A stretch of DNA of 64,000 nt from sequence record MN850610.1. One strand, 5' to 3'. The DNA comes from Escherichia phage Andreotti. Each line of letters begins with the position of its first letter. The stretch's first letter is position 1. The notes under the pieces were generated by a model, which ran no database searches, was not told the origin of the DNA, and saw only the letters and a program-made list of their open reading frames with translations. Below are positions 290 through 45,059 of this stretch, piece by piece. A program made the position numbers and the translations under genes.

Positions 290-1075
290 TTAGTTCTTTG
301 CGTCTAAGAAGGTAACTTCTGGTGAAGAGAAAACTGTCTCGATATCCTCATCAGTTCTTGCATAGATATAAGTATCTGCATCACTGCCAAATGTTACTGC
401 AATCCTGTGATTGCTCTTCGACAGGTGGGTAACTAGAGCGTTACTCAGAGACATCTTTTCAACCGGAGGGTTACTTTGATGTATCTTACCTTTTCTTCGT
501 CTGAAGAGGGTAACTGCGTTATCTGTGAACACTGCTACACCTGCAAAGTATTCTGGTTCACAGTAGTTCTTCCAACCTGAGCGTAACTTGTGGTACATCT
601 CTCCTTCGTAGACATAAAGATACACATCTACACTCTTCATCACCTGATTAATGATAACTGTGACGGCTTGAGGGTCTAGCCCACCGATACCTGCACCAAT
701 CATAGGTAAACCAACCTTCTTCAACTGGTTGACTTCACAGTATCTGTTAAGCTGCTTCAAAGATGACTCTAAAGCACTGTATCGGGCATCTTTACCAGTC
801 TTAAGCTGAGTGTAAAGGTTAGCTATACGGCCTTGTTCTAAACGTGCTACAGAGAAATTACCCAGTAAATTTTCACAGGGTTTGTGGCCTATACCACCTG
901 CATATAGATAAACTTCTGTATCGGTCTCATATGCTTTTGGGTAAAGTTTAGAAATCTTGTCAGCGATACCTGCACCCATTAAATTCATACAGTTGCAACC
1001 GTGACCGATGATGTCAAACTTACCTTTATCAAATGCGGCAAAGATATCACCATTGATTATTTTTACAATACCCAT
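290..1075 (-). CDS. macro-domain-like (ADP-ribose binding/processing) protein, N-terminal half; C-terminal half unassigned
   Basis: N-terminus IINGDIF...DIIGHGCNCMNLMGAGIADKI fits the macro-domain pattern (GDIT...N...G.GV..AI); family assignment from motif only. Confidence 0.4.
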   Translation of the reverse strand: MGIVKIINGDIFAAFDKGKFDIIGHGCNCMNLMGAGIADKISKLYPKAYETDTEVYLYAGGIGHKPCENLLGNFSVARLEQGRIANLYTQLKTGKDARYSALESSLKQLNRYCEVNQLKKVGLPMIGAGIGGLDPQAVTVIINQVMKSVDVYLYVYEGEMYHKLRSGWKNYCEPEYFAGVAVFTDNAVTLFRRRKGKIHQSNPPVEKMSLSNALVTHLSKSNHRIAVTFGSDADTYIYARTDEDIETVFSSPEVTFLDAKN

Positions 1076-3103: not shown

Positions 3104-3799
3104 TCAATGTTTAACTAACATGGTTTTGATGTGTGGAAGTATTCTGTTCACCTTCTGCACATTCTTCTCTGTGTCTTCTATAAAACATACTATATTAAAG
3201 TAAGGCAGAATGCAAGACTGAATCATCCTCACTTTCAAACTTTCTGCACTTATAGAGTTAGTCCCAAAACCACGCATAAAAAGCATGTAGTCATGCTCTG
3301 TGTTATGCCTTAAAAACATCTCAGTAGGTATTCTCTGAGATTCACCTCTCGCTGTCAAGAGTCCAATGGCAGCATGACTAGCAATTGCATCAATAATACT
3401 AAAGACATACGTTGGTTTTGCTCTTACAGAGTCAAGAAGATTAGTGTACTGTGAGAATGACCCATCAGTCAATTCCGTTGAGCAATCTTCGTGATTAAAA
3501 TTTGTAAGAACACCATCAATATCTGCTAAGATGAGGTTACCTTTTTCTACAAGGTCTTTATTGACTATGACTAAACTGTCACGTCTTACACCTATAGATT
3601 GTCCGGTCTCTTTGTCCACAACGTTCACAATTGGCTCTGATGTGTGAAACTCTTCAAGTGAACATACAACTTCTCTTGCAGTGTCTTCAAAATCCCTACA
3701 CTGTTCTGGAGTCCATACACAGGAATCAAGACCTAACTCATGAGGATGTAAGTCATAAGCATGGCACAGTACTTCATCAGACTTTTTTAATTTTTTCAT
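3104..3799 (-). CDS. HAD-superfamily phosphatase, possibly 5'(3')-deoxyribonucleotidase-like
   Basis: LILADIDGVLTNF resembles the DxDGVLxDF motif I of HAD/NT5C enzymes; motif sits about 90 aa from the N-terminus, so assignment is tentative. Confidence 0.35.
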   Translation of the reverse strand: MKKLKKSDEVLCHAYDLHPHELGLDSCVWTPEQCRDFEDTAREVVCSLEEFHTSEPIVNVVDKETGQSIGVRRDSLVIVNKDLVEKGNLILADIDGVLTNFNHEDCSTELTDGSFSQYTNLLDSVRAKPTYVFSIIDAIASHAAIGLLTARGESQRIPTEMFLRHNTEHDYMLFMRGFGTNSISAESLKVRMIQSCILPYFNIVCFIEDTEKNVQKVNRILPHIKTMLVKH

Positions 3800-4325
3800 G
3801 GTTTACCTTAGAAATGTTTATTGCAAATTCACATTGAGCGATGACTTTCATATTGTTATAGACATCTTGAGAGTATTTCTTAGCTTTAGGAATTTTGTAC
3901 GAATACCCAGCATTATATGATGCTAAAACTTTTTGTAAAGTCTTCTTTGACTTTGGCTGACCATGCACCTTTGTCCAAAACTCAAGCTCTTTGTGCGTTT
4001 CCTTCGCAGCATAGTCAAAGTCTTTTAAGAGTTTCTTTTTAGCCACATTAGGACTAATTTTGTTACGCTTTACAACAGTCTTCAAGTGATTCTGGAAAAT
4101 ACCATAATCATGTGTCTTTTTATTCTCTACCTTCAGACCTAACTCTGACTCTTGTAAGGCTATAGCAGCTAGAGTGATACCCCAACCTTTACCCATGTTA
4201 TTCTCACCATACTGGTAAGCTTTTAACATGTTTACTTTTTGGCTAATTGATAGCTCTGGGCAGTCAACTGCATAAGATAAGTGTGCTGTAAACATTAAGC
4301 ACAAACCTAGAATCAATTTCTTCAT
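3777..4325 (-). CDS. soluble lytic transglycosylase (SLT domain) with N-terminal signal peptide; endolysin candidate
   Basis: signal MKKLILGLCLMFTAHLSYA; SLT motifs AIALQESELG (catalytic Glu), GIFQ, SYNAGY. Confidence 0.65.
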   Translation of the reverse strand: MKKLILGLCLMFTAHLSYAVDCPELSISQKVNMLKAYQYGENNMGKGWGITLAAIALQESELGLKVENKKTHDYGIFQNHLKTVVKRNKISPNVAKKKLLKDFDYAAKETHKELEFWTKVHGQPKSKKTLQKVLASYNAGYSYKIPKAKKYSQDVYNNMKVIAQCEFAINISKVNHEKIKKV

Positions 4326-5584: not shown

Positions 5585-5604
5585 AAGGGGCTTCAAAGCC
5601 CCTT
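5585..5604 (-). promoter_or_regulatory. conserved intercistronic stem-loop AAGGGGCT-N4-AGCCCCTT upstream of the rIIB-like start
   Basis: perfect inverted repeat, no U-run; the same hairpin family recurs at 10359-10374 and 45042-45059. Confidence 0.45.
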
Positions 5605-8518: not shown

Positions 8519-8543
8519 TTAAAAAGGCTCCCGTAGGAGCCTC
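8519..8543 (-). terminator. intrinsic terminator (ggctcc-cgta-ggagcc plus U-run on minus transcript)
   Basis: A-run then GC hairpin on plus strand, just downstream of gene ending at 8557. Confidence 0.55.
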
Positions 8544-8556
8544 TTATCATATACTT

Positions 8557-10338
8557 TTAAAGCTGCTTGTCAATATTATTTCGAATATCTCCAAGAGTTG
8601 TATAACCGAACTGCTCAGAGTCGCTAAAGACTAAACGTAAAGCACAAGCTTGGTGGTCAAGTACATCTGCAAAACTCTGGAATCCATAGCCATCTACAGC
8701 TTTCAGCTTATCACCATCCCACATAGGTGCTACACCACCAAAGGCAGATTTCTTAACACCACTATCTGTTTTAGGGTCTTTTGCAAGCATAATCTCTTTA
8801 CCACCAATGCTTGCAAGAGTTGCTTTGACAGCAAATGCAAAGGTGTCACGAGTCATGTACTGGTAAGTGTAAGAGCCTACACCAAACACTACGTTAGAGC
8901 TTGCAAAACCCATTTCATACAGACGCTTCAGGATTTCGTTTGCACGTTCCAGCGTGATAGAGTCACCATAGATAAGGCCGATGTGCTCATCCAGTACCTT
9001 AAACCCTTTAGAGTTAATAGTCCCTCCGAAGATGTTGTACAGGGTCTTAATAGCTCCATCAATCTCTGCTACAGGACGTGTTACAACGTTTGCAGAGCCA
9101 ACCATATAAGCATTTTTCAACATCACTGTATCAGCAACTCCAAAGTCTTCTCTGTCAACAACCATTTCGTAGCCTTCTGACAGTAGCCATCCAGCAATAC
9201 CATAGTTGATGTTTTCAAGCTTCATGTTCAGAACAGCATTCAACATTGTGTCACTAGCTTCCAGCTTGCTTAGGTGCTCATAATAAGCCTTCTTAGCACA
9301 CTCTAAGTGGATTGCTTTATAGCCTGTGACAATATGTACAGGGTCTCCAGAGTCAGGGCGAATTACCAGCTTACCATCACGTTCCATAATTTCTTTACGA
9401 AGTGCTGGTAAGATTTCTGACACAGTTCTCCAGAAGTTATAAGTATCTGAAACAATACTTGCAATACCAGTTGGGTAAGTTTCTGTTAAGAAACGACGGA
9501 AGGTTTGCAACTCACCTTTAAAGCGTCTTTCCTCTTCAATCAATTCATTACCACCTTCCCAAGCAATGTTTGCACACATTACAGAGTGTTCAGTGGCTGG
9601 TACAGAACTACCAATATCAGAAATTGGGTAAGACTGTCCATAGATGCGTTTAGCCGTGTATACAGCAGGGAAGCTATCAGTTCCTTTAAAGCTGGTTAAG
9701 TGACCTACAGCATTAAATGCGTCATCGGTAAAGCCGGACATACCACGCATAGCAAAGTCATGGCACTGATAAGGTAAATGTAAGTCATTGTCGCAAGTAA
9801 GGTCAGCCCACTTCTTACAGATACGTTTGTAGTGCAATGCAATAGTTGCAATGGTGCAAGTCTTCCAAATCTCAGCAGAGAAAGCATCTTCCAGATAACC
9901 TGCTACCCAATGGAAACCTGAAACAGTGTTCTGGAAGACAATCATTGGAACACACATAGGAACAACTGTACCTTCTTCTACAGCGTATACTTCAACTGGT
10001 AGATAGCCTAAATCGTGAAGTGCTTCCCAATGCTCTCGACCGATAGCATCTTTACCCAGAACACCATTCATGACTTCTAAGATTTCGTCAACTGCTTCTT
10101 TTTTATCACGTTCAAAGAAAGTGGCGTTCCAGTGGTCTATCAGGTAATCTTTAACGAAACGTTGAATACCAAAAGCTACTACACCATCAATTGCTAAGGG
10201 GCTGTTAAACCATTTGTCACTACGTGGTGTCAGGTTGAACATCAAGTATTCTGTTGCACTAGGGTACTGGTAAACATGACCAGATTTGTAAGCATCTGCG
10301 TTTAAACCTGCTGGTACTGCGTAAAGCGATTTAGTCAT
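8557..10338 (-). CDS. nicotinamide phosphoribosyltransferase-like protein (NAMPT/NadV family, or the related Namat)
   Basis: 593-aa ORF directly downstream of a Prs-like gene; assignment rests on size and gene pairing known from Felix-O1/KVP40-type phages, not on a verified motif. Confidence 0.5.
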   Translation of the reverse strand: MTKSLYAVPAGLNADAYKSGHVYQYPSATEYLMFNLTPRSDKWFNSPLAIDGVVAFGIQRFVKDYLIDHWNATFFERDKKEAVDEILEVMNGVLGKDAIGREHWEALHDLGYLPVEVYAVEEGTVVPMCVPMIVFQNTVSGFHWVAGYLEDAFSAEIWKTCTIATIALHYKRICKKWADLTCDNDLHLPYQCHDFAMRGMSGFTDDAFNAVGHLTSFKGTDSFPAVYTAKRIYGQSYPISDIGSSVPATEHSVMCANIAWEGGNELIEEERRFKGELQTFRRFLTETYPTGIASIVSDTYNFWRTVSEILPALRKEIMERDGKLVIRPDSGDPVHIVTGYKAIHLECAKKAYYEHLSKLEASDTMLNAVLNMKLENINYGIAGWLLSEGYEMVVDREDFGVADTVMLKNAYMVGSANVVTRPVAEIDGAIKTLYNIFGGTINSKGFKVLDEHIGLIYGDSITLERANEILKRLYEMGFASSNVVFGVGSYTYQYMTRDTFAFAVKATLASIGGKEIMLAKDPKTDSGVKKSAFGGVAPMWDGDKLKAVDGYGFQSFADVLDHQACALRLVFSDSEQFGYTTLGDIRNNIDKQL

Positions 10339-10358
10339 CTTTTAATCTCTCTCAAAAT

Positions 10359-10374
10359 GGGGCTTTCAAGCCCC
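10359..10374 (-). promoter_or_regulatory. conserved intercistronic stem-loop GGGGCTT-N2-AAGCCCC between the Prs-like and NAMPT-like genes
   Basis: perfect inverted repeat about 20 nt upstream of the NAMPT-like start codon. Confidence 0.45.
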
Positions 10375-10383
10375 TATAAAGTT

Positions 10384-11265
10384 TCAATCAATGGTTGCTA
10401 CAGTAACTTGGGCGTAATGTGTTAAGCCACGGTCTTTAGCTTCACCTAAAGTGTTTGTAGTGTAGATATGGTCAATACCGTTGTCAAGTAAGTTTTCAAC
10501 ACCTTTAGAGAAAATACCATGAGTTACATAGAGTTCCACACGTTTTGCACCTGCTTCACGTAGGTGTTTAGCTGCCTCTACGAAGGTTCGACCACCATCA
10601 CAGATATCATCAAGAATCATGACAGTTTTATCGGTCAAATCAACATCGTCAAGGATTCGCATACCAGTGATTTCTCCAGTCTTAAGATTGCGCACCTTAG
10701 ACATTGTGATATACGGTTTATCCACCTCTTTAGCGGTATCTTCAGTCTTCTTAGCTGCACCTGCATCTGGGGCTACCAAGAAATCAATGCGTGGGTCACT
10801 TGCAAAGTGTACTGCCACATCTTTTTGCTTCATGCTTTGAAAGCACTTAAATAAGTTTTCTGCAACATTACTGTGAGGGTCAAGAGCACATACTGCATCA
10901 AAACCCATTGCATTAACTAGGTTGGCAAAGACTTTCAGTGCTGCTGCATCACCTTTGAACATGTGGCGGTCATATCGAGCATTTGGTAAGAACCCGAAAA
11001 CAACGGTTTTCATCGCTGATTTCTGGGGAACAAGACTGTCAACGGCATCCTTAGCCAAAGCTAATGCAAACAGTGTATCTTTGTCATATCCCTGTACAGT
11101 AATTATAACATTATCAATCTTACCAGCATTACGCTCAGTAAACTTAACAAAATCTTCAGAGAAGTTTCCACCAATTTCTCCAGATGGGAATTGAATGATA
11201 TTAAATTTTTCTGTGTGGAAGAATTTCTCTTGAGCGGTGACGACGGCTTCAATAACAGTTTTCAT
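10384..11265 (-). CDS. ribose-phosphate pyrophosphokinase-like protein (Prs family; could be ADPR-PP synthetase type)
   Basis: PRPP-binding motif VMILDDICDGGRTF near C-terminus; start moved to ATG at 11265 (MKTVIE), preceded by a purine-rich GAGAGAG stretch. Confidence 0.6.
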   Translation of the reverse strand: MKTVIEAVVTAQEKFFHTEKFNIIQFPSGEIGGNFSEDFVKFTERNAGKIDNVIITVQGYDKDTLFALALAKDAVDSLVPQKSAMKTVVFGFLPNARYDRHMFKGDAAALKVFANLVNAMGFDAVCALDPHSNVAENLFKCFQSMKQKDVAVHFASDPRIDFLVAPDAGAAKKTEDTAKEVDKPYITMSKVRNLKTGEITGMRILDDVDLTDKTVMILDDICDGGRTFVEAAKHLREAGAKRVELYVTHGIFSKGVENLLDNGIDHIYTTNTLGEAKDRGLTHYAQVTVATID

Positions 11266-11276
11266 AGTTTTCTCTC

Positions 11277-11555
11277 TCAATCAAAAGTTACGTTTGTTAC
11301 TGCCATTGCAGATTTGCATTTTGCAGGGTCTACAACGTGATAAAGTACACTACAGTTACCTGTGCTGTCTGGTACAGGCTTTACCCATTGCTGCTTTATA
11401 TTTGGCTCCCCTAAGTCTTTGTAAGAGCCATCTGTAAAGTTGTTTACCATCTCAAGTGCAATTGGTTCTGGAACATGCCCACGTATCATGTACATTTCAC
11501 AACCATTACCGCCTTCACTGACTAATGGTAAAATCTCCCACTTCTCTTTAGCCAT
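11277..11555 (-). CDS. hypothetical protein
   Basis: co-directional ORF. Confidence 0.45.
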   Translation of the reverse strand: MAKEKWEILPLVSEGGNGCEMYMIRGHVPEPIALEMVNNFTDGSYKDLGEPNIKQQWVKPVPDSTGNCSVLYHVVDPAKCKSAMAVTNVTFD

Positions 11556-12063
11556 TGTAAGTTGCCCTATAAACTGTCTCGAACTTCAACAGGAGAGATA
11601 TTGCCAAATCTGTATAGTTGTTGTCAAGCACATCTGGCATATTATTTTTGATATATTTCTCTTGCTCTTCATAGGTCATCTTAGTTGTGCTTAGAAGGTT
11701 ATCTCCCTGCTTCTGGTTATCAAGTTTAGTCTGGATAAACCAGTTTGCACAGTGATGCTCACCACCCTTTGTAACAGGTTTGTGGTGGCCTAATGTGAAG
11801 GATTGACTACCTGTGTATCTACAAAGCTTATTGAGCACTGCAATGGTGTTCTTCACAACAAAACATTCATACAGGTTATCTATAGTGTAGTGTGGGTAAT
11901 AACGGAATAGTACTCTTTCACGAGTACTTTCACGATTCCAGAGAATCATGTGATTGGAGTTTGAGGGGTCGTATTGGTGGGAGTCAATGAACTCTTGACG
12001 TTCCTCAAAGCTAAGTCTTAACACTGACATTGCAGCAGAACGTTTTAGGTTTGACAGATACAT
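11548..12063 (-). CDS. hypothetical protein
   Basis: co-directional ORF. Confidence 0.5.
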   Translation of the reverse strand: MYLSNLKRSAAMSVLRLSFEERQEFIDSHQYDPSNSNHMILWNRESTRERVLFRYYPHYTIDNLYECFVVKNTIAVLNKLCRYTGSQSFTLGHHKPVTKGGEHHCANWFIQTKLDNQKQGDNLLSTTKMTYEEQEKYIKNNMPDVLDNNYTDLAISLLLKFETVYRATYNG

Positions 12064-12074
12064 ATCATCTCCAA

Positions 12075-12103
12075 AATAAAAAGGGAACTGTAAAGGTTCC
12101 CTT
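12075..12103 (-). terminator. intrinsic terminator (agggaac-loop-gttccct plus U-run on minus transcript)
   Basis: A-run then hairpin on plus strand, downstream of gene ending 12115. Confidence 0.5.
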
Positions 12104-12114
12104 ATAGTATCTGT

Positions 12115-12435
12115 TTACTGAGCTACTTTCAAGATGCTTGTGAATGAAATCTCACTCTCATCCATAAACTCTTTTGCTTCTCCAGTAACTTTTACAAAGT
12201 TATCTAGGCAGATAATCTTCTTATCTTTCTTGCTATAGGTTAGCTTGACCTTTTCAATATCTTTCTTAGAGTTTTTCTCTTCATTAAAGAGCTTCACAGC
12301 TTCTTTAAATGGTAGGTATGAACCATCATCATCGCTAATAAAACCTGTGCCGCAATAGTAGAAGTTATATTCTTTAGCCATAAACTGGCACAGTACGAAA
12401 ATCTGTAATTTGCGAGTGTTATATACTTTGCTCAT
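12115..12435 (-). CDS. hypothetical protein
   Basis: co-directional ORF. Confidence 0.5.
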   Translation of the reverse strand: MSKVYNTRKLQIFVLCQFMAKEYNFYYCGTGFISDDDGSYLPFKEAVKLFNEEKNSKKDIEKVKLTYSKKDKKIICLDNFVKVTGEAKEFMDESEISFTSILKVAQ

Positions 12436-14248: not shown

Positions 14249-15115
14249 TTACATAGAAATCCTGTCACGAATCTCAGCGATTTTTGCATCATTCATTCGG
14301 GATTCACCTTTAATCTTAGTCCATCCCAGATATCCGCACACCCTGTTAATCACAGAGATGTCATGTGAATGGCAAACCTCACATTCTTCAACATCAGCCT
14401 TTGGTCTGTTACCACAATGTTCACAGATTGCTAAGTCAAAGTTAAGTCCCTGATAGAAACCTTTCAACATACCTCTTGTAATACAACTTTTAAGTGCTGG
14501 TAAGTTTTCTGGGTTAGCTACCCTTACATACTGGATTCTGCCACCTCTACAGATATGGAAGAATGGCTCTTCTAAGTCCTGCTTCTCAAATGGTGAGATG
14601 TTTGCTGCAACATTCATATGGAAACTGTTTGTAAAGTATTCCTTGTCAGAAACGCCTTTAATAACACCAAACATATCTCTGAACTGTTTTAGCTGAGTTC
14701 CACACAATGACTCTGCTGGAGTGCCATATACTGCATACAGGAAGCCATCTTCATTCTTAAACTCTTCAGTTTTCATGTTAATGTATGCCAGAACATCGTA
14801 TGCAAAACTAGAACTTCCAACTTCATGAAGTCGTTTACCTTCAGCAAGAACAGATAACTCATCAAGAGCAGTAACCCCAAAAGAAGCTGTGAAGGATTTC
14901 ACAATATCCCAACCAACCTTGTCAGTAGGCTTCTTAGTCCCTTTATACAGACCACCTTGTGTGAATGCAAGAGGGTTAGAACTTGCTGGCATATTGGCAA
15001 TCATTTCGTAACGTTTCTTATGGAAGCTGCGAATCATTTCTAGGTACTTATCAAGCTCTTTCCAGAAATCTAAACCATTCTCTTTAGAATACTGGTAAAT
15101 CATTGGTAAGTTCAA
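14249..15115 (-). CDS. nrdD: anaerobic ribonucleoside-triphosphate reductase, C-terminal part (exon 2)
   Basis: glycyl-radical motif RVCGYLG and Zn ribbon CEHCG...CEVC at C-terminus; exon boundary not determined, track start is only the first Met. Confidence 0.7.
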   Translation of the reverse strand: MNLPMIYQYSKENGLDFWKELDKYLEMIRSFHKKRYEMIANMPASSNPLAFTQGGLYKGTKKPTDKVGWDIVKSFTASFGVTALDELSVLAEGKRLHEVGSSSFAYDVLAYINMKTEEFKNEDGFLYAVYGTPAESLCGTQLKQFRDMFGVIKGVSDKEYFTNSFHMNVAANISPFEKQDLEEPFFHICRGGRIQYVRVANPENLPALKSCITRGMLKGFYQGLNFDLAICEHCGNRPKADVEECEVCHSHDISVINRVCGYLGWTKIKGESRMNDAKIAEIRDRISM

Positions 15116-15935
15116 AGATACAGCACCAATGTTAGCACGACCTACATAAAACTCTTCACCATCTTCGTTATGGTATGGTGATAAAAACGCTCTACACTTG
15201 TTGTTCAGGTAAGTTCGCTACGCTTACCCCGCTTTATTCAAGCTGCTTACTGTCACCAGTAAGTCCAGACTATATCTTCTACTTATTTCTAAGTAGCGTA
15301 CCATTTCGAGTCGCTTGACCCTACACCGCTACATTCATCACGGTTAGTCGTTTGGCATTTAGATGTATTCAAATTCATGTTCAAAGTTATTATGTTCTTT
15401 TACACCCTTCAGTATTGAAGAGATAGTCTTGCGATTATACCCAAGTATCTTGGATAACTCTCGTATCGAGTTCGCAACAATAACTTCTTTTGTTACTTTG
15501 TGTGTAGCCTTCACAGCATATGAACGCTTACAAAACTTGTAGCAACCATTCTCATAACCTTCTTTAACATTCTCAGAATGAGTTCCCCATTCTAAGTTAG
15601 AAGCATGGTTATTCAGTTTGTTATCATCTTTGTGTTTTACAATTGGAAGATTGTTCGGGTTAGGTACATATTTCTCAGCAACTAACCTATGAACATACAT
15701 GTCACGATTCTTCTTACCGTAAAACCTCACTTTCATATACCCAGTGTTGGATTTCCACTGCTTAAGTTCTACACCATTTTTCCTAAAGACTCTTCCGTCT
15801 TCAGTAACATGATAATTTGGCATGTAATACTCCTATGTTGTATAGTTTCTTACATCGTACATCATTTAGCACAGGATTGTCTACATCTGTAGAGTTTCCC
15901 TGTTTAGGCACGTTTTAGATGAGCTATAGAGCCTG
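15116..15935 (-). mobile_element. intervening sequence splitting nrdD, probably a self-splicing (group I-like) intron carrying an HNH homing endonuclease; boundaries approximate
   Basis: nrdD reading frame broken by stop at 15936 and resumed downstream; insertion contains a free-standing HNH ORF plus non-coding flanks; T4-type phages carry introns in nrdD. Confidence 0.45.
15359..15823 (-). CDS. HNH homing endonuclease (intron-encoded)
   Basis: HNH motif HKDDNKLNNHASNLEWGTHSEN; C-terminal helix-turn-helix-like region. Confidence 0.6.
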   Translation of the reverse strand: MPNYHVTEDGRVFRKNGVELKQWKSNTGYMKVRFYGKKNRDMYVHRLVAEKYVPNPNNLPIVKHKDDNKLNNHASNLEWGTHSENVKEGYENGCYKFCKRSYAVKATHKVTKEVIVANSIRELSKILGYNRKTISSILKGVKEHNNFEHEFEYI

Positions 15936-17135
15936 TTAACCCATCGGTGAAATAACCTTGCCAGAACGCTCAAAAGCTTCTGCTACAGCACCATGACCAG
16001 ATACACTTAAGAAATCTGGATACATTGCTTTAGAGCAACACTCAATAGCTTTACTGTACAGGTGTCCTTGACAGATATTCTCATCGTGTCTCTTCTGGTC
16101 ATAAATATAAACCAGTTTAGGGAATACAACAGGCTTCTTGCTCTTACCTTGTCCATTCATACGAACATCTAGGAGAGTACTTGCAATCATGTATTGCAGT
16201 CGGTTATCTTCATTGGACATATCTGAGTCAAGTAACCCGAATGTCAAAGTTGTAAATGCAAAATCCCCACGGCTACAAGGCACAGTGTTTAGCTTCATTT
16301 CAAGTGACTGGAAACCTTGAGTCAGTTCAATCTGTAGCTGCTCCATGACATAGTTGTGGTAATGTTCTTTAGGAATACCATAAGCTGTTGCTTTTTCAGC
16401 ATGGTAACGTAGAGACTTCTTAGCATACGGTACAAGTACCTTATCAATCTCTGCTAAAGTAAAGCCACCAAATTGCTGTGCAGTTGCTGAAAGAACTACA
16501 TCACCAATAACCTGTAAGGCTGATAGTACAGACTTTGGTTCACAATATTCAATGCCAGACATTTCAAAGCCACCTTTCAGGACTTTACCAATGTCAAACA
16601 GACAACAGTTGATACCACCAAAAATTAGGTCTCTTAAGTCATGGATATAAATAAACCCTTTTTCAATGGCTTCAAGTTCCTCTGGTGTTAAGTGGTACTG
16701 TTTAAAGATTTCTTTAGTCAGGTAACCACGAATAATTGAACCTTTTGTAGAAATTAAACTGCTGTCAAAATTAGCGTTTTCTCGGTCACCTAAGAAGAGT
16801 GTATCCTTAGTCTTCTGGTAAAGTTCATCCCAATTTTGAGCAACTTCTTTACGGTAATTTCTATATGTTGAGTAAGACTCATAAATCTCGTGATTGACTT
16901 CTGCCAAAGCACCCTCAACAATACTGTGAATATCATTTACTGAAATTAGCAAATTATTCTGTTTAGTAGATTTTACCAGAATCCTCATAAATGCTGACTC
17001 AAGAGCTTGAGTAACATCTGGTGGAAGCTCTTTATAACCAACTCTGTTAGCTGACTTTGTGACTGCTACTAAAACTTTTTTGATATCAGGTTCTTCAAGT
17101 GAGCCATTCTTTTTAATAATCTGTACTTTGTTCAT
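15936..17135 (-). CDS. nrdD: anaerobic ribonucleoside-triphosphate reductase, N-terminal part (exon 1)
   Basis: about 400 aa upstream partner of the glycyl-radical C-terminal part, adjacent to nrdG; terminates at an in-frame stop before the insertion. Confidence 0.6.
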   Translation of the reverse strand: MNKVQIIKKNGSLEEPDIKKVLVAVTKSANRVGYKELPPDVTQALESAFMRILVKSTKQNNLLISVNDIHSIVEGALAEVNHEIYESYSTYRNYRKEVAQNWDELYQKTKDTLFLGDRENANFDSSLISTKGSIIRGYLTKEIFKQYHLTPEELEAIEKGFIYIHDLRDLIFGGINCCLFDIGKVLKGGFEMSGIEYCEPKSVLSALQVIGDVVLSATAQQFGGFTLAEIDKVLVPYAKKSLRYHAEKATAYGIPKEHYHNYVMEQLQIELTQGFQSLEMKLNTVPCSRGDFAFTTLTFGLLDSDMSNEDNRLQYMIASTLLDVRMNGQGKSKKPVVFPKLVYIYDQKRHDENICQGHLYSKAIECCSKAMYPDFLSVSGHGAVAEAFERSGKVISPMG

Positions 17136-45041: not shown

Positions 45042-45059
45042 AGGGGCTATACAGCCCCT
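45042..45059 (-). promoter_or_regulatory. conserved intercistronic stem-loop AGGGGCT-N4-AGCCCCT between the two tail-fibre genes
   Basis: perfect inverted repeat about 20 nt upstream of the 42680-45022 start codon. Confidence 0.45.

What the first reader, a model, noticed from the sequence alone, without database searches (positions are those of the whole stretch)
8557..11265. Prs-like + NAMPT-like gene pair: candidate NAD+ reconstitution (anti-defence) module
A PRPP-synthetase-family gene (DDICDGGRTF PRPP-binding motif) is immediately followed, after a conserved hairpin, by a 593-aa NAMPT-family-sized gene. To my knowledge this pairing has been described in phages as NAD+ salvage, and more recently a Prs-like ADPR-pyrophosphate synthetase plus a NAMPT-like transferase were reported to rebuild NAD+ from ADP-ribose and nicotinamide, countering NAD+-depleting defences (Thoeris, DSR, SIR2-type). 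No NMNAT-like partner is obvious in this window, which is more compatible with the two-enzyme ADPR-based route than with canonical salvage. A macro-domain-like gene (290-1075) elsewhere in the window would fit an ADP-ribose theme.
Basis: partly seen in the sequence, partly recalled or inferred. Interest (0 to 1): 0.65.

Follow-up and report, generated by a model that had tools for sequence, protein, structure and literature searches.

The report
Known phage NAD+ rebuilding operon (NARP1)

Summary
On the minus strand a 293-aa PRPP-synthetase-like gene (11265..10384) is followed, after a 45-nt spacer holding a conserved hairpin, by a 593-aa NAMPT-like gene (10338..8557). The window is a Felixounavirus genome. 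The two proteins are 99% and 98% identical to genes 79 and 80 of phage Bas63 (JohannRWettstein), the operon in which NARP1 was discovered. The Adps sequence printed for the nearest relative, phage LNA1, in that paper's supplementary table is identical to the window's. Its Namat is listed there as 'Adps-associated'. The sequence features that separate Adps from Prs and Namat from Nampt are present. No NMNAT gene was found in the window or in the whole Bas63 genome.

Two side points are less well covered. The macro-domain gene at 290..1075 belongs to the same family as Adpp, the ADPR-1''-phosphate phosphatase that extends NARP1 against aRES defence. It lies 7.5 kb from the operon and is absent from the published list. 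The Namat also carries an undescribed ~70-80-aa inserted subdomain.

The parts
10384..11265 (-). adps: ADP-ribose pyrophosphate synthetase (PRPS-like), 293 aa. It converts ADPR + ATP to ADPR-PP + AMP.
   Evidence: Pfam Pribosyltran and Pribosyl_synth. 291/293 residues identical to Bas63_0079. The sequence printed for phage LNA1 in the Adps table of Osterman et al. is identical. The PP loop, catalytic Lys and acceptor residues align with the structurally characterised ICP1 Adps.
10359..10374 (-). Conserved 6-bp GC-rich hairpin (GGGGCT-UGAA-AGCCCC, followed by AUUUUG) in the 45-nt adps-namat spacer. Possibly a weak terminator or an RNA stability or processing element.
   Evidence: Fold -14.4 kcal/mol, z -3.3. 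Conserved in Felixounavirus and Mooglevirus. The same hairpin type occurs at 5587-5602 and 45043-45058, with 0 expected by chance. It does not pass the terminator scan because it has only 4 T.
8557..10338 (-). namat: nicotinamide ADP-ribose transferase (NAMPT-like), 593 aa. It converts ADPR-PP + nicotinamide to NAD+ + PPi.
   Evidence: Pfam NAPRTase and NAMPT_N. 584/593 residues identical to Bas63_0080 and 100% identical to phage Andreotti. The best PDB match by sequence and by fold is the SpbetaL1 Namat crystal structure 9w5w/9w5x. The Namat motif GSYTYQYMTRD is at residues 488-498.
9061..9309 (-). Insertion in Namat (about residues 344-426) relative to the roughly 490-aa Namats. It is predicted to form a small alpha/beta subdomain of unknown role.
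   Evidence: Gap in the HMMER alignment to 9w5w. The length at this site varies from 14 to 97 aa across 35 homologues. AF2 pLDDT is 92-96 over this stretch. No Pfam match.
8522..8545 (-). Terminator-like hairpin immediately after the namat stop codon, preceded by a promoter-like site at 8573..8546. Probable 3' end of the transcription unit.
   Evidence: Consensus scan only. This is an inference, not shown.
11277..12063 (-). Two upstream genes probably co-transcribed with the operon: ORF171 (12063..11548, homologue of Bas63 gp77) and ORF92 (11555..11277, homologue of gp78).
   Evidence: The two ORFs overlap by 8 nt, and ORF92 ends 11 nt before the adps ATG. Promoter-like and hairpin sites lie at 12132..12081. 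Bas63 gp77 is reported to counter the Ec67 retron. ORF92 is restricted to Ounavirinae. Co-transcription is inferred.
290..1075 (-). Macro-domain protein, 261 aa (homologue of Bas63_0095 'putative phosphatase'). Candidate unlinked Adpp (ADPR-1''-phosphate phosphatase) with an extra C-terminal beta-rich domain.

Best explanation
This is the NARP1 operon (NAD+ reconstitution pathway 1) of a Felixounavirus.

When an NAD+-depleting defence such as SIR2-HerA, type I Thoeris, DSR1/2 or SEFIR cleaves NAD+ into ADP-ribose and nicotinamide, two enzymes reverse the damage. [quoted passage not shown] Namat, on a NAMPT scaffold with an adenine-binding 'selectivity clamp', then joins nicotinamide to ADPR-PP. 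This releases pyrophosphate and regenerates NAD+, so phage replication continues.

Shown here: gene order, near-identity to the characterised Bas63 genes, and presence of the diagnostic residues.

Taken from the literature: the chemistry, measured on SpbetaL1 and ICP1 homologues, and the anti-defence phenotype, measured on Bas63.

Inferred: that these specific alleles behave the same way, and that the operon is co-transcribed with the two upstream genes.
For: Identity and context:
- The region is 99.8% identical in DNA to Escherichia phage LNA1 and 97.1% to Bas63.
- Adps is 291/293 and Namat 584/593 identical to Bas63_0079 and Bas63_0080.
- None of the 11 substitutions falls on a catalytic or clamp residue.
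- Osterman et al. (bioRxiv 10.1101/2024.02.11.579819) list the LNA1 and Andreotti proteins as Adps and as 'Adps-associated' Namat. The Adps sequence printed for LNA1 is identical to the window's.

Published phenotype for Bas63:
- Deleting genes 79-80 sensitises the phage to SIR2-HerA, and ADPR-PP appears only in wild-type infection.
- An independent screen found drops in plating efficiency of 10^4 to 10^6 on Sir2-HerA for single g79 or g80 deletions.

Adps signatures against the ICP1 Adps structure (PMC13586617), read from alignment A2:
- F26 = F18, R97 = R87, H131 = H121, D167 = D161, K190 = K185.
- DDICD at 219-223 corresponds to D212-D216, and F228 = F221.
- The C-terminal alpha11-12 of Prs is missing.
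- The protein scores only 58 bits, at 24% identity, against E. coli Prs.

Namat signatures (PMC12774641):
- The clamp-helix (SCH) motif GSYTYQYMTRD is present, and K42/W43 in the clamp loop (SCL) match the description for Bas63.
- Catalytic residues F195, R198, D221, H251, R327 and D329 are present.
- A Nampt-like homologue from a Slopekvirus, with no Prs-like gene annotated within 3 kb, has GMGGGLLQEVTRD at the same site.
- The best structural match is the Namat crystal structure, TM 0.95.

No NMNAT was found in the window or in the Bas63 genome.
Against: - No biochemical assay has been reported in the papers read here for a purified Felixounavirus Adps or Namat. The enzymology comes from SpbetaL1 and ICP1 homologues that are 33-46% identical.
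- Two Adps contact residues of ICP1 are not conserved: F92 aligns with M102 (F103 is adjacent) and F223 aligns with E230.
- The Namat carries a roughly 70-80-aa insertion absent from the crystallised enzyme.
- SpbetaL1 Namat can still make NMN from PRPP in vitro when ADPR-PP is absent, so some canonical activity cannot be excluded.
Confidence: 0.95

Rival explanations
1. Canonical NAD+ salvage, as the GenBank annotations imply. The first enzyme would be a true ribose-phosphate pyrophosphokinase making PRPP. The second would be a true NAMPT (NadV) making NMN, which host NadR or PncC/NadD then converts to NAD+.
For: The Pfam and PHROG names are Pribosyltran/Prs and NAPRTase/NAMPT. Relatives are annotated this way. 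SpbetaL1 Namat can make NMN from PRPP in vitro when ADPR-PP is absent.
Against: [quoted passage not shown] ADPR-PP accumulates in wild-type but not in delta-79-80 infection. With both donors present, only NAD+ is made. The window's proteins carry the Adps PP loop and the Namat clamp rather than the Prs and Nampt versions. No phage NMNAT was found.
Confidence: 0.03
2. An extended three-enzyme pathway (NARP1-AP) working in trans. The macro-domain protein at 290..1075 would be an Adpp that converts ADPR-1''-phosphate, the product of aRES/RES NADases, to ADPR. That would feed Adps and Namat and so also protect Felixounaviruses from aRES.
For: The macro domain scores 107 bits over the full length of an HMM built from 10 NARP1-operon Adpp proteins. 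Its pairwise scores to them (33-77 bits) overlap the spread within that set (37-199). It is 27% identical to the assayed Gary Adpp and to AG74_177, which sits between adps and namat. The fold is closest to BT1257, TARG1, DarG and Poa1p. The gene is syntenic with NARP1 on the same strand even in relatives whose Namat is only about 50% identical. aRES was described from E. coli.
Against: The gene is 7.5 kb and 13-14 genes away from the operon, behind several terminator-like sites. It is never adjacent to NARP1 in this lineage. The same macro family is common in T4-like phages, whose macro loci (next to a valyl-tRNA-synthetase modifier gene) show no NARP1 gene in the annotation; the rest of those genomes was not checked. 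It carries an extra C-terminal domain of unknown function. The fold is equally close to DarG and TARG1, which remove ADP-ribose from DNA or protein. No experiment exists, and it is absent from the published Adpp table.
Confidence: 0.3

Closest known systems
NARP1 of Escherichia phage JohannRWettstein (Bas63), genes 79-80 (Osterman et al., bioRxiv 10.1101/2024.02.11.579819)
   Same: Same genus, same gene order, same spacer hairpin and same flanking genes. The proteins are 99% and 98% identical.
   Different: There are 11 amino-acid substitutions, none at catalytic or clamp sites. Bas63 has one extra small gene (0081) just downstream of namat that this window lacks.
SpbetaL1 Namat (PDB 9w5w/9w5x) and Vibrio phage ICP1 Adps, the biochemically and structurally characterised NARP1 enzymes
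   Same: The catalytic core, the clamp-helix (SCH) motif, the Adps PP loop DDICD, the catalytic Lys, and loss of the Prs C-terminal helices.
   Different: Identity is 38-39% (Namat) and 33% (Adps). The window's Namat has insertions of about 15 and about 70-80 aa. Its clamp loop (SCL) uses K42/W43 instead of an Arg. ICP1 F92 and F223 are not conserved in the window's Adps.
NARP1-AP of Vibrio phage Gary (adps-adpp-namat; Osterman et al., bioRxiv 10.64898/2026.01.28.702374)
   Same: Adps, Namat and a Poa1p-like macro protein of the same family are all encoded in one genome.
   Different: Here the macro gene is 7.5 kb away rather than inside the operon. It has an added roughly 90-aa C-terminal domain, and it has not been tested.
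NARP2 (Nampt + Nmnat/Nudix of KVP40) and NARP3 (PnuC + NadR-like of Bas30)
   Same: Phage pathways that restore NAD+ against the same class of defences. The Nampt of NARP2 is a homologue of Namat.
   Different: No NMNAT or NadR-like gene was found here, so NARP3, which needs a NadR-like enzyme, is excluded. The NAMPT homologue carries the Namat clamp, not the Nampt GxGGGLLQ sequence.

Membership tests
NARP1 (Adps + Namat) | Adps: a PRPS-like protein that falls in the phage Adps clade rather than with cellular Prs | tested here: met
   99% identical to Bas63_0079, one of the queries that defined the clade. The sequence printed for phage LNA1 in the published Adps table is identical. 33-35% identity to the ICP1 and AG74 Adps against 24% to E. 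coli Prs.
NARP1 (Adps + Namat) | Adps active site: PP loop DDICD, catalytic beta-hairpin Lys, acceptor residues (ICP1 R87, H121, D161, D212, D213, D216), and loss of the Prs C-terminal alpha11-12 | tested here: met
   R97, H131, D167, K190 and D219-D223 align, and the protein ends about 20 aa before E. coli Prs. Exceptions: F92 aligns with M102 and F223 with E230.
NARP1 (Adps + Namat) | A Namat homologue encoded next to adps (within 10 genes) | tested here: met
   The genes are adjacent on the same strand with a 45-nt spacer.
NARP1 (Adps + Namat) | Namat clamp-helix (SCH) motif GS-x-Phi-x-Phi-x-Phi-TRD with aromatic residues at motif positions 3 and 7 | tested here: met
   GSYTYQYMTRD at 488-498, with Y490 and Y494. 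A Slopekvirus Nampt-like homologue has GMGGGLLQEVTRD at the same site.
NARP1 (Adps + Namat) | Namat clamp loop (SCL) with a stacking residue (Arg at position 3, or Lys/Tyr at position 3 followed by the stacking residue at position 4) | tested here: met
   S-D-K42-W43, the arrangement the paper describes for Bas63. This is a sequence-level test only.
NARP1 (Adps + Namat) | Conserved NAMPT-type catalytic core (SpbetaL1 F189, R192, D215, catalytic His, R306, D308) | tested here: met
   F195, R198, D221, H251, R327 and D329 are invariant in 35 homologues.
NARP1 (Adps + Namat) | Enzyme activities: ADPR + ATP gives ADPR-PP, and ADPR-PP + nicotinamide gives NAD+ | not testable with these tools
   Shown in vitro for SpbetaL1 and ICP1 homologues. 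ADPR-PP was detected in Bas63-infected cells.
NARP1 (Adps + Namat) | Counter-defence phenotype against NAD+-depleting systems | not testable with these tools
   Shown for Bas63 by two independent groups. Not tested for this exact isolate.
Canonical Prs (ribose-phosphate pyrophosphokinase) | Prs-type PP loop (DDMIDTGGT in E. coli Prs) and the C-terminal alpha11-12 regulatory and filament module | tested here: not met
   The window has DDICDGGRT and lacks the last roughly 20 residues of E. coli Prs.
NARP2 (Nampt + Nmnat) | An NMNAT encoded in the same genome, and a Nampt without the adenine clamp | tested here: not met
   No NadD- or NadR-like ORF in the window or the Bas63 genome, best E 0.79. 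The Namat clamp is present. A very divergent NMNAT could escape phmmer.
NARP1-AP (Adps + Adpp + Namat) | A macro-domain (Poa1p-like) protein within two genes of the NARP1 genes | tested here: not met
   The macro gene is 13-14 genes and 7.5 kb downstream. No Escherichia or Salmonella phage appears in the published table.
NARP1-AP (Adps + Adpp + Namat) | The macro protein is homologous to the validated Adpp | tested here: met
   107 bits against an Adpp HMM over its full length, and 27% identity to Gary Adpp. The family also includes macro proteins of T4-like phages, so homology alone does not show the function.
NARP1-AP (Adps + Adpp + Namat) | ADPR-1''-phosphate phosphatase activity and protection against aRES | not testable with these tools
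   Assayed only for the Vibrio phage Gary protein.

The most novel reading that the evidence does not exclude
Felixounaviruses and their relatives may run a 'split' NARP1-AP. The conserved two-domain macro protein 7.5 kb downstream of namat (window 290..1075, Bas63 gene 95) would act as an unlinked ADPR-1''-phosphate phosphatase. It would let the Adps-Namat pair also overcome RES-type (aRES) NAD+ phosphorolysis. The published operon-proximity screen, which looked only two genes either side, would have missed it, so the reach of NARP1-AP would be underestimated. The extra C-terminal domain and the Namat insertion could be lineage-specific adaptations.
Probability: 0.3. Interest if true: 0.4.

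Novelty: already known. Interest (0 to 1): 0.12.

Why it matters
As it stands the finding mainly confirms that a reader working from sequence alone can recognise NARP1. It adds no new biology, because the system was discovered in a phage 97% identical over this region and the nearest relative's proteins are already in the published tables. Its practical value is in annotation. In most GenBank relatives these genes are still labelled 'ribose-phosphate pyrophosphokinase' and 'nicotinamide phosphoribosyltransferase', which misstates their substrates. The only open questions are the unlinked Adpp-like macro protein and the Namat insertion. If the macro protein proved to be a functional Adpp, it would widen the known host range of the anti-aRES extension to enterobacterial phages used in therapy and typing.

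Tried and rejected
- Canonical Prs/NAMPT salvage: rejected on the residue signatures and on the published delta-pncC delta-nadR result.
- NARP2 and NARP3: rejected, since no NMNAT or NadR-like ORF was found. The ICP1 case shows that NMNAT absence is not diagnostic in itself.
- Spacer hairpin as an intrinsic terminator: it does not meet the scan criteria. The stem is invariant, so there is no covariation support. No Rfam family matches anywhere in the window at gathering threshold. Its role is left open.
- ORF92 (gp78) as a third NARP1 component: it is confined to Ounavirinae and does not travel with NARP1 elsewhere, so there is no support.
- Pfam on the Namat insertion and on the macro C-terminal domain alone: nothing significant.
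- The KVP40-like phage PVA23, fetched as a NARP2 control: the locus turned out to be a NadR/PnuC region. A Slopekvirus Nampt-like gene was used instead.
- The Adpp residues mutated by Osterman et al.: these could not be recovered from the text or supplements, so catalytic-residue conservation in the macro protein was judged only from motif alignment.
Full report
**What is in the sequence**

Both genes lie on the minus strand.
- The Prs-like ORF starts at the ATG at 11265 and ends at 10384 (293 aa). The ORF listing extends it to a TTG at 11280. However, a GAGAGAGA Shine-Dalgarno-like run precedes the ATG, and every annotated relative uses that ATG.
- The NAMPT-like ORF runs 10338..8557 (593 aa) and has the same GAGAGAGA run before its start.
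- Pfam gives Pribosyltran and Pribosyl_synth for the first protein, and NAPRTase (E 4e-35) plus NAMPT_N for the second.
- DDICDGGRTF is at residues 219-228 of the first protein.

The 45-nt spacer holds the hairpin GGGGCU-UGAA-AGCCCC followed by AUUUUG, at window 10359-10374.
- It folds at -14.4 kcal/mol, z -3.3.
- It is conserved in Bas63, warpig and the Mooglevirus Sf19, with an unchanged stem.
- In Salmonella virus VSe102 an HNH endonuclease gene sits in the spacer instead.
- The same GGGGCT-loop-AGCCCC hairpin also occurs at 5587-5602 and 45043-45058, with none expected by chance.

**Where the window comes from**

The 3.2 kb around the pair is 99.8% identical to Escherichia phage vB_EcoM_LNA1 and 97.1% to Escherichia phage JohannRWettstein, also called Bas63. 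In all, 258 Ounavirinae-type records match. Gene order around the pair is the same as in Bas63: nrdG, several small genes, gp77, gp78, gene 79, gene 80, small genes, rIIA, rIIB.

**What it is**

Bas63 genes 79-80 are the operon in which NARP1 was discovered (Osterman et al., bioRxiv 10.1101/2024.02.11.579819).
- Deleting them sensitises Bas63 to SIR2-HerA.
- ADPR-pyrophosphate appears only in wild-type infection.
- Purified homologues from SpbetaL1 convert ADPR + ATP to ADPR-PP (Adps) and ADPR-PP + nicotinamide to NAD+ (Namat).
- An independent knockout screen of Bas63 found drops in plating of 10^4 to 10^6 on Sir2-HerA for single g79 or g80 deletions.

The window's proteins are 291/293 and 584/593 identical to Bas63_0079 and Bas63_0080. 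The Namat is 100% identical to that of phage Andreotti. The supplementary tables of the discovery paper already list the LNA1 and Andreotti proteins as Adps and as 'Adps-associated' Namat, and the Adps sequence printed there for LNA1 is identical to the window's.

**Membership tests**

Adps. The structural paper on ICP1 Adps (PMC13586617) defines a PP loop, a catalytic beta-hairpin Lys185, acceptor residues, and loss of the C-terminal alpha11-12 helices of Prs. In alignment A2 the window's protein has:
- F26 (= F18), R97 (= R87), H131 (= H121), D167 (= D161), K190 (= K185);
- DDICD at 219-223 (= D212-D216) and F228 (= F221);
- an end about 20 residues before E. coli Prs.

Two ICP1 contacts differ: F92 aligns with M102 and F223 with E230. 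E. coli Prs has DDMIDTGGT at the PP loop and is only 24% identical.

Namat. PMC12774641 defines a selectivity clamp made of a helix motif (SCH), GS-x-Phi-x-Phi-x-Phi-TRD with aromatic residues at motif positions 3 and 7, and a variable loop (SCL) that supplies one more stacking residue.
- The window has GSYTYQYMTRD at 488-498, and S-D-K42-W43 in the loop, as described for Bas63.
- The catalytic residues F195, R198, D221, H251, R327 and D329 are invariant in 35 homologues.
- As a control, a Slopekvirus Nampt-like homologue with no Prs-like gene annotated within 3 kb has GMGGGLLQEVTRD and a short loop at these sites.
- By sequence the best PDB match is the SpbetaL1 Namat (431 bits, against about 140 bits for mammalian NAMPT).
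- An AlphaFold2 model (pLDDT 93.2) matches that crystal structure with TM 0.95.

NMNAT. phmmer with E. coli NadD and NadR against all six-frame ORFs of the window and of the whole Bas63 genome found nothing (best E 0.79). The Bas63 annotation lists none either. It is not diagnostic by itself, because ICP1 carries NARP1 and a NadR-like gene together.

**How it works**

NAD+-depleting effectors split NAD+ into ADPR and nicotinamide. Adps pyrophosphorylates the terminal ribose of ADPR using ATP. Namat then couples nicotinamide to ADPR-PP, releases pyrophosphate and restores NAD+.

What rests on which basis:
- Shown here: gene order and residue signatures.
- From the cited papers: the chemistry and the phenotype.
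- Inferred: that these alleles behave like those of Bas63, which is safe given that 11 substitutions lie outside functional sites.
- Inferred: the transcription unit. Promoter-like and hairpin sites at 12132..12081 and 8573..8522 bracket ORF171 (gp77), ORF92 (gp78), adps and namat. The first two ORFs overlap by 8 nt.

Bas63 gp77 is reported to counter the Ec67 retron, and rIIA/rIIB to counter QatABCD. The neighbourhood is therefore rich in counter-defence genes.

**Side observations**

(a) The macro-domain gene at 290..1075 is real.
- It hits Pfam Macro at E 1.2e-7 and PHROG 335 'phosphatase', and corresponds to Bas63 gene 95.
- A 2026 preprint shows that a Poa1p-like macro protein, Adpp, inserted in some NARP1 operons dephosphorylates ADPR-1''-P. 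That compound is the product of aRES defence, and its removal restores NARP1 function.
- The preprint's screen looked only two genes either side of NARP1. Its table holds no Escherichia or Salmonella phage.
- The window's macro domain scores 107 bits over the full length of an HMM built from 10 of those Adpp proteins. It is 27% identical to the assayed Gary protein.
- Its model (pLDDT 88.8) is closest to BT1257, TARG1, DarG and Poa1p.
- The gene keeps its position relative to namat in relatives whose Namat is only about 50% identical, but it is never adjacent to it.
- The same family is common in T4-like phages, whose macro loci show no NARP1 gene in the annotation. The protein also has an unassigned C-terminal beta-rich domain.
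- A split NARP1-AP is therefore a reasonable but untested idea.

(b) The Namat is about 100 aa longer than the crystallised enzyme. Most of the excess is an insertion at residues about 344-426, at a site whose length varies from 14 to 97 aa across the family. It is confidently predicted as a small alpha/beta subdomain, has no Pfam match, and is not discussed in the structural paper.

**Verdict**

The system is already known, in this very genus, with genetics, metabolomics and structures published. Interest is low. The only threads worth an experiment are the unlinked Adpp-like macro protein and the Namat insertion.

Noticed in passing
window 290-1075 (- strand): A two-domain macro protein (macro domain at residues 1-168 plus a beta-rich C-terminal domain at about 175-261). 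It belongs to the same family as the NARP1-associated phosphatase Adpp, but it is unlinked from the operon and absent from the published Adpp list.
   Followed up: partly
window 9061-9309 (- strand; Namat residues about 344-426): An insertion of about 70-80 aa in Namat at a length-variable site. It is predicted with high confidence as a small alpha/beta subdomain, has no family match, and is not discussed in the Namat structure paper.
   Followed up: partly
window 5587-5602, 10359-10374, 45043-45058: Three intergenic copies of the same GGGGCT-loop-AGCCCC hairpin, with 0 expected by chance. Separately, the terminator-like hairpins at 8545..8522 and 12103..12081 sit directly after promoter-like sites and just before the next gene's ribosome-binding site.
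   Followed up: partly
window 14249-17135 (- strand): The anaerobic ribonucleotide reductase gene nrdD is split into two exons (15936..17135 and 14249..15115). Between them lie a sub-threshold group I intron match (RF00028, 35 bits, 15246-15426) and an HNH_3 homing-endonuclease ORF (15359..15823). Bas63 annotates the gene the same way.
   Followed up: partly
L004 (Salmonella virus VSe102) 3391-3882: In some Felixounaviruses (VSe102, and probably LinBro and ekra) an HNH endonuclease gene is inserted exactly in the adps-namat spacer, replacing the hairpin. In the distant relative L013, an HNH_3 gene follows namat.
   Followed up: no
window 11548-12063 and 11277-11555 (- strand): ORF171 is the homologue of Bas63 gp77, reported to counter the Ec67 retron. 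The PhageMaP paper calls it GIY-YIG, whereas PHROGs here gives a weak HNH-endonuclease hit. It overlaps by 8 nt with ORF92 (gp78), which has unknown function and is restricted to Ounavirinae. Both lie directly upstream of adps.
   Followed up: partly
window 3104-3799 (- strand): A polynucleotide kinase gene lies between the NARP1 operon and the macro gene. This order (namat, rIIA, rIIB, PNK, macro) is conserved in distant relatives (L012, L013), where a D12-class DNA methyltransferase is also present.
   Followed up: no
L005 and H108 (Vibrio phage ICP1): ICP1 encodes both a NARP1 pair and a NadR-like protein elsewhere in its genome. One phage can therefore combine NAD+ restoration routes, and absence of NMNAT is not what defines NARP1.
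   Followed up: no
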